Shown piece after piece: positions 15,010 to 15,306 of a stretch of DNA of 64,000 nt. The DNA is taken from NCBI RefSeq assembly GCF_055900595.2, contig NZ_CM148325.1; one strand, 5' to 3'. Each line of letters opens with the position of its first letter. Position 1 is the first letter of the stretch. The translations under genes were made by a program, and so were the position numbers. The notes under the pieces were generated by a model, which searched no databases, was not told the origin of the DNA, and saw only the letters and a program-made list of their open reading frames with translations.

Positions 15010-15086
15010 TGGTTGCGGGGGCCGGATTTGAACCGACGACCTTCGGGTTATGAGCCCGACGAGCTACCAGGCTGCTCCACCCCGCG
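15010..15086 (-). tRNA. metV: tRNA-fMet (initiator), copy 1, CAT anticodon
   Basis: Reverse complement reads CGCGGGGTGGAGCAGCCTGGTAGCTCGTCGGGCTCATAACCCGAAGGTCGTCGGTTCAAATCCGGCCCCCGCAACCA. Confidence 0.9.
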
Positions 15087-15119
15087 TCACCGTACTGCTT
15101 TACTTCATCAAATTTTGAT

Positions 15120-15196
15120 TGGTTGCGGGGGCCGGATTTGAACCGACGACCTTCGGGTTATGAGCCCGACGAGCTACCAGACTGCTCCACCCCGCG
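15120..15196 (-). tRNA. metW: tRNA-fMet (initiator), copy 2, carrying a single D-loop substitution (GCAGTCTGG instead of GCAGCCTGG)
   Basis: Identical to copies 1 and 3 except one base at 15181 (a instead of g on the + strand); 110 bp tandem period. Confidence 0.85.
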
Positions 15197-15229
15197 TCAC
15201 CGTACTGCTTTACTTCATCAAATTTTAAT

Positions 15230-15306
15230 TGGTTGCGGGGGCCGGATTTGAACCGACGACCTTCGGGTTATGAGCCCGACGAGCTACCAGGCTGCTCCAC
15301 CCCGCG
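15230..15306 (-). tRNA. metZ: tRNA-fMet (initiator), copy 3
   Basis: Same 77 nt sequence as copy 1. Confidence 0.9.

What the first reader, a model, noticed from the sequence alone, without database searches (positions are those of the whole stretch)
15010..15306. Tandem tRNA-fMet triplet with one variant copy
Three 77 nt initiator tRNA genes sit in a 110 bp tandem repeat. The middle copy differs by a single D-loop base (GCAGTCTGG versus GCAGCCTGG). From memory the K-12 metZWV copies are identical, so this may be a strain-specific allele.
Basis: partly seen in the sequence, partly recalled or inferred. Interest (0 to 1): 0.2.

Follow-up and report, generated by a model that had tools for sequence, protein, structure and literature searches.

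The report
Rare one-base variant in initiator tRNA triplet
This is the well-known E. coli operon of three tandem initiator-tRNA genes (metZ-metW-metV), and its middle copy carries a rare, probably harmless one-base change (C16 to U) in a loop where many other bacteria naturally have U, so the finding is real but ordinary.

Summary
Three 77-nt tRNA-Met(CAU) genes lie at 15306-15230, 15196-15120 and 15086-15010 on the minus strand, with a 110-bp period. All three have the initiator hallmarks. They are the E. coli metZ-metW-metV operon, with the K-12 promoter sequence and a hairpin plus U7 terminator.

The middle copy (metW position) differs only at tRNA position 16 (C16U, window base 15181). K-12's three copies are identical to each other and to window copies 1 and 3.

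The allele is rare. Only 5 of 5,426 complete E. coli genomes carry the exact 77-mer, in different gene copies (metY, metW, metV), so it has arisen repeatedly. None of the window's nearest relatives has it. It is one of 13 scattered differences from that clade, which look like real polymorphism.

U16 is the native state of initiator tRNAs in many phyla, and the identical 77-mer is the native initiator tRNA of some Pseudomonas species. The neighbouring change C17U, at the Dcm-methylated cytosine, is in 125 genomes.

Best reading: a lineage-private, near-neutral SNP that puts U16 (probably made into D16 by DusC) into about a quarter of the initiator pool. Read error cannot be excluded without reads. 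Low interest.

The parts
15230..15306 (-). Initiator tRNA gene, copy 1 (metZ position). Canonical tRNAfMet1 sequence with C16, G46 and an encoded CCA.
   Evidence: ARAGORN. Rfam RF00005 at 61.4 bits. Identical to K-12 metZ/W/V. mltA lies divergently upstream, as in K-12.
15120..15196 (-). Initiator tRNA gene, copy 2 (metW position), carrying C16U in the D-loop. The variant base is window 15181.
   Evidence: (63.0 bits). This is the only difference from the nearest genome across 551 bp. The exact 77-mer is in 5 of 5,426 genomes.
15010..15086 (-). Initiator tRNA gene, copy 3 (metV position), canonical sequence.
15197..15229 (-). 33-bp spacer between copies 1 and 2.
   Evidence: It differs from the other spacer at one base (15227).
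15087..15119 (-). 33-bp spacer between copies 2 and 3.
15307..15347 (-). Operon promoter and short leader: -35 TTGCAT (15347-15342), a 16-nt spacer, -10 TATAGT (15325-15320), a G+C-rich stretch, then the tRNA 5' end. An A8 tract lies just upstream.
   Evidence: Window 15342-15307 is identical to the K-12 sequence tgaaaacgcgagcggagtatagtgcgcatccacgga used as a primer in PMC3017606. That paper maps promoter-down mutations to the -10 box and to the G just before it. My assignment of the hexamers is inference. The consensus scan missed the promoter because the -35 matches only 3 of 6.
14958..14989 (-). Intrinsic terminator of the tRNA operon: CCGCAAU/AUUGCGG stem, 11-nt loop, then U7.
   Evidence: RNA fold gives -18.6 kcal/mol, z = -4.2, and 0 of 200 shuffles fold as well. 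The consensus scan missed it because it allows loops of at most 8 nt. This is a different sequence from K-12's metV terminator.
9447..15008 (+). Context, not part of the tRNA operon: a 5,562-bp segment that replaces K-12's 71-bp amiC-metV spacer. It carries genes for a PRD-domain regulator, a PTS EIIC, a MalY/PatB-family protein, a KpsF/GutQ-family isomerase and a phosphoglycerate dehydrogenase.
   Evidence: The breakpoints come from BLAST against K-12. The gene names come from the annotation of near-identical relatives.

Best explanation
The locus is the E. coli metZ-metW-metV operon. One promoter drives three tandem initiator-tRNA genes, the transcript ends at an intrinsic terminator, and it is processed into three tRNAfMet1 molecules. 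In this strain's lineage a single C-to-T transition on the sense strand changed position 16 of the metW copy, in the variable part of the D-loop. All known initiator identity elements are untouched, and U16 is the natural base in the initiator tRNAs of many bacteria. The variant tRNA is therefore expected to be charged, formylated and used normally. Initiator tRNA level follows gene copy number, so about one quarter of the cell's initiator pool (one of four genes, counting metY, which lies outside the window) should carry U16. That U16 is probably reduced to dihydrouridine by DusC. The change is most likely neutral or nearly so.

Shown: the anatomy, the single difference, its rarity, its recurrence, its absence from close relatives, and U16 being native in other species. 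Inferred: expression, D16 modification and neutrality.
For: Identity and anatomy:
- Three tRNA-Met(CAU) genes are called.
- The C1xA72 mismatch is flagged as a non-standard pair in the Rfam alignment.
- The G29-C41, G30-C40 and G31-C39 pairs, A11:U24, G46 and an encoded CCA can be read directly.
- Gene order and the mltA neighbour match K-12 metZWV.
- The promoter sequence is identical to K-12's, and there is a terminator.

The SNP is derived and private:
- It is the only mismatch to the nearest genome in 551 bp.
- It is absent from the three relatives examined.
- Only 5 of 5,426 genomes carry the exact variant 77-mer, so it is absent from the other 5,421 genomes.

The sequence looks like real divergence:
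- The window differs from all three clade members examined (E200086, Z0117EC0005, AST85) at 13 scattered sites in 57 kb.
- The coding changes among them are 5 synonymous and 6 nonsynonymous. Random errors would give about 1:3.

The change is tolerated:
- The same C16U occurs in metY of ETEC H10407 (and SEC470), metW of FDAARGOS_944, and metV of ABW_A32 and XJ6.2.
- The 47-nt 5' part with U16 is native in at least 120 stretches from species-representative genomes across many phyla.
- The full 77-mer is identical to the initiator tRNA of Pseudomonas sp. ok272, P. trivialis and a third genome (L127), whose record title I did not look up.
- The Rfam tRNA model scores the U16 copy higher, 63.0 versus 61.4 bits.

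Literature:
- Initiator tRNA level follows gene copy number (PMC3017606).
- The conserved initiator features are formylation and the 3GC pairs, not the D-loop (PMC5389676).
- E. coli DusC makes D16 (PMC5814906).
Against: No reads are available, so a consensus error cannot be excluded. Identical tandem copies are an awkward target for short-read assembly and polishing. Nothing here measures expression, modification or fitness. The near-absence of C16U in E. coli (0.09% of genomes) could mean weak purifying selection rather than strict neutrality. The count of independent origins is a minimum estimate from gene position and context, not from a phylogeny.
Confidence: 0.85

Rival explanations
1. 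Sequencing, assembly or polishing error: the strain really has C16 in all three copies, and the T in the middle copy is an artefact.
For: No close relative has the base. The site lies inside a 110-bp tandem repeat of near-identical units, where read placement is hardest. Among the four differences private to the window in 3-27 kb, one is a 1-bp indel and none is synonymous.
Against: Taken as a class, the window's differences from its relatives look evolutionary. They are scattered, with 9 transitions to 5 transversions in the comparison with E200086, and 5 synonymous to 6 nonsynonymous among the coding differences from all three relatives. There is no other source of a T at this position in the genome from which mis-mapped reads could create it, because the other two copies in the window and every initiator-gene copy examined in the near relatives have C. 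The same substitution exists independently in five finished genomes, so it is biologically plausible.
Confidence: 0.1
2. Adaptive allele: U16 (or D16) in part of the initiator pool is selected, for example for D-loop flexibility at low temperature or to tune initiation. That would explain why the same change recurs in different copies.
For: There are at least four independent origins of the identical substitution in different genes and backgrounds (plus the window). D-loop changes are not equally frequent: C17U is in 125 genomes, C16U in 5, U17aC in 2 and U20C in 0.
Against: The frequency is only 0.09% and the allele has never spread within a sampled clade. The allele occupies only one copy in each of the five carrier loci examined here. 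C-to-T is the commonest spontaneous change, and with 4 gene copies across thousands of lineages a handful of recurrences at an unconstrained site is expected under neutrality (inference). The higher C17U count is explained by mutation, since that is the Dcm-methylated cytosine (PMC2715241), without invoking selection.
Confidence: 0.04
3. Import of a foreign (for example Pseudomonas-type) initiator tRNA sequence by recombination or gene conversion.
For: The variant 77-mer is identical to the native initiator tRNA of some Pseudomonas species.
Against: Only one base differs, and both flanking spacers and the whole 551-bp neighbourhood are identical to those of E. coli relatives. A point mutation is far more parsimonious.
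Confidence: 0.01

Closest known systems
E. coli K-12 metZWV operon (tRNAfMet1 genes metZ, metW, metV; b2814-b2816)
   Same: Three 77-nt genes with a 110-bp period and 33-bp spacers. mltA lies divergently upstream. The promoter-proximal sequence is the same. All copies have G46. Copies 1 and 3 are identical to K-12's.
   Different: The middle copy has U16 instead of C16. Downstream of metV, a 5.56-kb segment with its own terminator replaces K-12's 71-bp spacer and terminator before amiC.
C16U alleles in other E. coli: metY of ETEC H10407 and SEC470, metW of FDAARGOS_944, metV of ABW_A32 and XJ6.2
   Same: The 77-nt sequence is identical.
   Different: The gene copy and/or genomic background differ. 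All four metZWV-type carriers have the K-12-like amiC neighbour, and FDAARGOS_944 has a 34-bp second spacer. These are independent origins.
Native initiator tRNAs with U16 in other bacteria (for example Pseudomonas trivialis and Pseudomonas sp. ok272; also Bacillus, Faecalibacterium, Bdellovibrio and Geobacter species)
   Same: The 5' 47 nt, including U16, are identical in at least 120 stretches, and the full 77 nt are identical in three genomes.
   Different: In those species U16 is the fixed wild-type state and the genomic context is different (next to tRNA-Leu GAG in the Pseudomonas loci). Here it is a minority allele in one of several copies.
C17U variant of E. coli tRNAfMet genes
   Same: It is also a single C-to-U change in the same CCUGG D-loop motif, and it is also found in different copies: metZ in 203740 and 14EC033, metY in 90-3040.
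   Different: It is 25 times more frequent (125 versus 5 genomes). It affects the inner cytosine of the Dcm site CCWGG, the base that is methylated and prone to deamination (PMC2715241). C16 is the outer, unmethylated cytosine.

Membership tests
Bacterial initiator tRNA (tRNAfMet) | tRNA cloverleaf with a CAU anticodon | tested here: met
   ARAGORN calls tRNA-Met(cat) three times. Rfam RF00005 gives full-length matches at 61-63 bits against a gathering score of 29.
Bacterial initiator tRNA (tRNAfMet) | Unpaired 1:72 position (C1 x A72), the formylation determinant | tested here: met
   C1 and A72 are read. The pair is flagged as non-standard ('v') in all three Rfam alignments.
Bacterial initiator tRNA (tRNAfMet) | Three consecutive G-C pairs in the anticodon stem (29-41, 30-40, 31-39) | tested here: met
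   GGG at 29-31 and CCC at 39-41 in all three copies. The feature is as defined in PMC5389676.
Bacterial initiator tRNA (tRNAfMet) | A11:U24 pair in the D-stem (established knowledge of E. coli tRNAfMet) | tested here: met
   A11 and T24 are invariant in the alignment.
Bacterial initiator tRNA (tRNAfMet) | Aminoacylated with Met, formylated, and used at the ribosomal P-site | not testable with these tools
   This needs biochemistry or tRNA sequencing. It is inferred from the intact identity elements and from the identical 77-mer being native in Pseudomonas.
E. coli metZWV operon (tRNAfMet1) | Three tandem genes downstream of one promoter, divergent from mltA | tested here: met
   The promoter-proximal 36 nt are identical to the K-12 sequence in PMC3017606.
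E. coli metZWV operon (tRNAfMet1) | G at position 46 (tRNAfMet1, as opposed to A46 in K-12 metY, tRNAfMet2) | tested here: met
   G46 in all three copies. The definition is from PMC3017606.
E. coli metZWV operon (tRNAfMet1) | Three identical gene copies | tested here: not met
   The middle copy differs at position 16. K-12 and the nearest relative Z0117EC0005 have three identical copies. This is an allelic difference, not a reason to deny orthology.
E. coli metZWV operon (tRNAfMet1) | amiC immediately downstream of metV, as in K-12 | tested here: not met
   A 5,562-bp segment lies between amiC and metV. The same arrangement is seen in the relatives, and about 551 of 5,426 genomes cover at least 80% of the 24-kb query that includes it.
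Dcm 5-methylcytosine deamination hotspot (CCWGG to CTWGG) | The mutated base is the inner, methylated cytosine of CCWGG | tested here: not met
   The D-loop CCTGG is a Dcm site, but the variant is TCTGG, which changes the outer cytosine C16. Dcm methylates the second C (PMC2715241). The inner-C product C17U is the one that is frequent, at 125 genomes.

The most novel reading that the evidence does not exclude
The CCUGG motif in the D-loop of E. coli initiator tRNA genes (positions 16-19, a Dcm site in a very highly transcribed gene) may be a recurrent mutational hotspot. It would repeatedly create mixed initiator-tRNA pools: C17U in about 2.3% and C16U in about 0.1% of complete genomes, arising in any of the four genes. 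The extra uridines could become additional dihydrouridines (D16 by DusC, D17 by DusB) with a small selectable effect on initiation or cold growth. This would be natural heterogeneity in the initiator tRNA pool that I did not find described in the papers I searched.
Probability: 0.08. Interest if true: 0.3.

Novelty: already known. Interest (0 to 1): 0.06.

Why it matters
It matters little. The operon is textbook E. coli biology. The variant base lies outside every known initiator identity element and matches the natural state in many bacteria. Its practical value is as a lineage marker. It is also a caution for anyone using D-loop probes or assuming a homogeneous tRNAfMet1 pool. The one mildly useful by-product is the population picture: single-copy D-loop variants of initiator tRNA genes exist at low frequency in E. 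coli, and the commonest (C17U) coincides with the Dcm-methylated cytosine.

Tried and rejected
1. Dcm hotspot as the cause of C16U. Rejected. The D-loop CCTGG is a Dcm site, but the methylated, deamination-prone base is C17, not C16. The hotspot product C17U is indeed much commoner.

2. Foreign origin or gene conversion. Rejected because the flanks are identical to those of E. coli relatives.

3. Metagenome scan for the E. coli spacer plus C16U. It gave 0 hits, but the canonical control gave only 12 stretches. The negative therefore has no statistical power and is not used as evidence.

4. Consensus promoter/terminator scan. It found only a weak + strand site and missed both the real promoter (its -35 matches 3 of 6) and the terminator (11-nt loop). 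These were established instead from the K-12 sequence in PMC3017606 and from folding.

5. The regular-looking spacing of private differences (9681, 15181, 18181) made me consider planted or artefactual changes. The full list of 15 differences shows no pattern.

6. I did not try to enumerate all tRNAfMet variants in the collection. The similarity search reports only the best place per genome, so I tested specific variants as queries instead.

Full report
**Observation**

The window contains exactly three tRNA genes. All are tRNA-Met(CAU) on the minus strand, at 15306-15230, 15196-15120 and 15086-15010. Tandem Repeats Finder reports a 110-bp unit, 2.7 copies and 98% matches, which gives 77-nt genes and 33-bp spacers. 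The Rfam tRNA model matches all three end to end, at 61.4, 63.0 and 61.4 bits against a gathering score of 29.

The three genes differ at one column only. Position 16 is T in the middle copy and C in the outer copies. This is window base 15181 on the + strand. The only point it did not state is the strand.

**What the genes are**

Every copy shows the initiator hallmarks:
- C1 opposite A72, flagged as a non-standard pair by Infernal.
- G29-G31 paired with C39-C41.
- A11:U24.
- G46.
- An encoded CCA.

The literature consulted names formylation and the 3GC pairs as the conserved initiator features (PMC5389676).

In K-12 MG1655 the same arrangement is annotated as metZ, metW and metV, between mltA and amiC. 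The three K-12 genes are identical to each other and to window copies 1 and 3. PMC3017606 also states that metZWV encodes three identical tRNAfMet1 molecules. Because mltA lies divergently upstream in the window too, copy 1 is metZ, copy 2 (the variant) is metW and copy 3 is metV.

In standard tRNA numbering the D-loop reads A14 G15 C16 C17 U17a G18 G19 D20 A21 (established knowledge of E. coli tRNAfMet). The change is therefore C16U.

**Operon signals**

The 36 nt immediately upstream of copy 1 (15342-15307) are identical to the K-12 sequence used as a knockout primer in PMC3017606. That paper places promoter-down mutations in the -10 box and at the G just before it. This fits -10 TATAGT at 15325-15320, preceded by G, and -35 TTGCAT at 15347-15342. 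The hexamer assignment is my inference.

Downstream of copy 3 a CCGCAAU/AUUGCGG hairpin followed by U7 (14989-14958) folds at -18.6 kcal/mol, with z = -4.2. The generic consensus scan missed both signals for threshold reasons.

**How rare is the variant**

I used the 77-mer as a query, so that the '>=99% identity' band means an exact match.

| D-loop variant | Complete E. coli genomes with the exact 77-mer (of 5,426) |
|---|---|
| C16U (this finding) | 5 |
| C17U | 125 |
| U17aC | 2 |
| U20C | 0 |

The five C16U carriers have it in different genes:
- metY locus: ETEC H10407 and the length-identical record SEC470.
- metW: FDAARGOS_944.
- metV: ABW_A32 and XJ6.2.

With the window, that is at least four independent origins. 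C17U was in metZ in two genomes and in metY in one, out of three inspected.

The D-loop CCTGG is a Dcm site. Dcm methylates the inner cytosine, whose deamination gives CTWGG (PMC2715241). That explains the excess of C17U but not C16U, which is the outer cytosine. C16U is better seen as an ordinary sense-strand C-to-T transition at an unconstrained site. Elevated transcription-associated mutation of tRNA genes has been documented mainly in eukaryotes (bioRxiv 10.1101/229906, listed), so it is context only.

**Is it real**

The window is E. coli and is nearly identical to a tight clade: E200086, 100117, 100248, Z0117EC0005, AST85 and others. Across 551 bp around the array, the only mismatch to the nearest genome is the C16U base.

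Over window 1-60137 there are 14 SNPs and one 1-bp indel against E200086. They are scattered, with 9 transitions and 5 transversions. Thirteen sites differ from all three relatives examined:
- 5 synonymous changes.
- 6 nonsynonymous changes.
- 1 intergenic indel.
- The tRNA base.

Random errors would give roughly three nonsynonymous changes per synonymous one, so as a class these are real substitutions separating a sister lineage at about 2.3 x 10^-4 per site. At that divergence about 0.05 differences are expected in 231 nt of tRNA genes. Seeing one is mildly lucky but not remarkable. Without reads, an error at this particular base cannot be excluded (I put it at about 10%).

**Is it functional**

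A scan of one genome per species found the 47-nt 5' portion with U16 in at least 120 stretches before the scan hit its limit. These span Pseudomonas, Stutzerimonas, Bacillus, Faecalibacterium, Bdellovibrio, Geobacter, Actinomycetes and others.

In three genomes the whole 77-mer is identical to the window's variant copy. Two are Pseudomonas sp. ok272 and P. trivialis. I did not look up the title of the third (L127). In all three, ARAGORN calls it tRNA-Met(CAU) next to a tRNA-Leu(GAG).

The variant is therefore a sequence that already serves as the sole type of initiator tRNA in other gammaproteobacteria. The Rfam model even prefers U16, at 63.0 versus 61.4 bits.

In E. coli, DusC makes D16, DusB makes D17 and DusA makes D20/20a (PMC5814906). 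The new U16 is therefore a plausible DusC substrate (inference). Because initiator tRNA levels follow gene copy number (PMC3017606), about one quarter of the pool should be the U16 species (inference, assuming a normal metY outside the window).

**Verdict**

The finding is a real and correctly described feature of a textbook locus. It carries a rare, recurrent, lineage-private and most probably near-neutral point substitution. It is not a new kind of element and poses no mechanistic puzzle.

The most novel reading still open is that the CCUGG D-loop motif is a mutational hotspot that generates natural initiator-tRNA heterogeneity with a small selectable effect. That reading is unlikely and would be only modestly interesting.

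**What led nowhere**

The metagenome scans were uninformative: 0 variant hits versus only 12 canonical control hits. Foreign origin and the Dcm explanation for C16U were both rejected, as described above.

Noticed in passing
window 9447-15008: A 5,562-bp segment replaces K-12's 71-bp amiC-metV spacer. Its junctions fall exactly at the amiC stop codon and one base beyond metV's CCA end. It carries genes for a PRD-domain regulator, a PTS EIIC, a MalY/PatB-family protein, a KpsF/GutQ-family isomerase and a phosphoglycerate dehydrogenase, plus a replacement terminator for the tRNA operon. The annotation of the near-identical relatives lists no integrase there. About 551 of 5,426 complete genomes cover at least 80% of a 24-kb query that includes it.
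   Followed up: partly
E. coli genome collection (not the window): tRNAfMet position 17: The C17U variant of the initiator tRNA (GCAGCTTGG) is present in 125 of 5,426 complete E. coli genomes. In three genomes inspected it was in metZ twice and in metY once. C17 is the inner cytosine of the Dcm site CCTGG, so this looks like a 5-methylcytosine deamination hotspot inside an essential tRNA gene. The number of independent origins was not determined.
   Followed up: partly
window 60138-61466: A 1,329-bp insertion that relative E200086 lacks. It encodes a 402-aa DDE_Tnp_1 transposase (Pfam E = 1.5e-24), and its size and protein length match IS10 from memory. It lies between the LemA-family gene and queE, about 90 bp upstream of queE.
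   Followed up: partly
window ~62699-63093: A CRISPR array with a 61-bp period and the repeat GAGTTCCCCGCGCCAGCGGGGATAAACCG (E. coli type I-E style). The region aligns only at 95-97% and with gaps to the relative, which suggests different spacer content.
   Followed up: no
window 9681: A single extra C (TTGCCTTTTTTTTT versus TTGCTTTTTTTTT), private to the window relative to three close relatives. It lies 22 bp upstream of the PRD-domain regulator gene of the inserted segment. It could affect that gene's ribosome-binding region, or it could be an assembly indel.
   Followed up: no
window 18181 and 24432: Two nonsynonymous differences from all three close relatives: csdA has Gln where the relatives have His, and fucK has Gly where the relatives have Val. 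Their direction was not polarised with an outgroup.
   Followed up: no
window ~38500-39000 and ~58770-59440: According to the relatives' annotation, there is an IS200/IS605-family tnpA between syd and yqcC, and a truncated TPM-domain pseudogene next to intact TPM/LemA genes.
   Followed up: no
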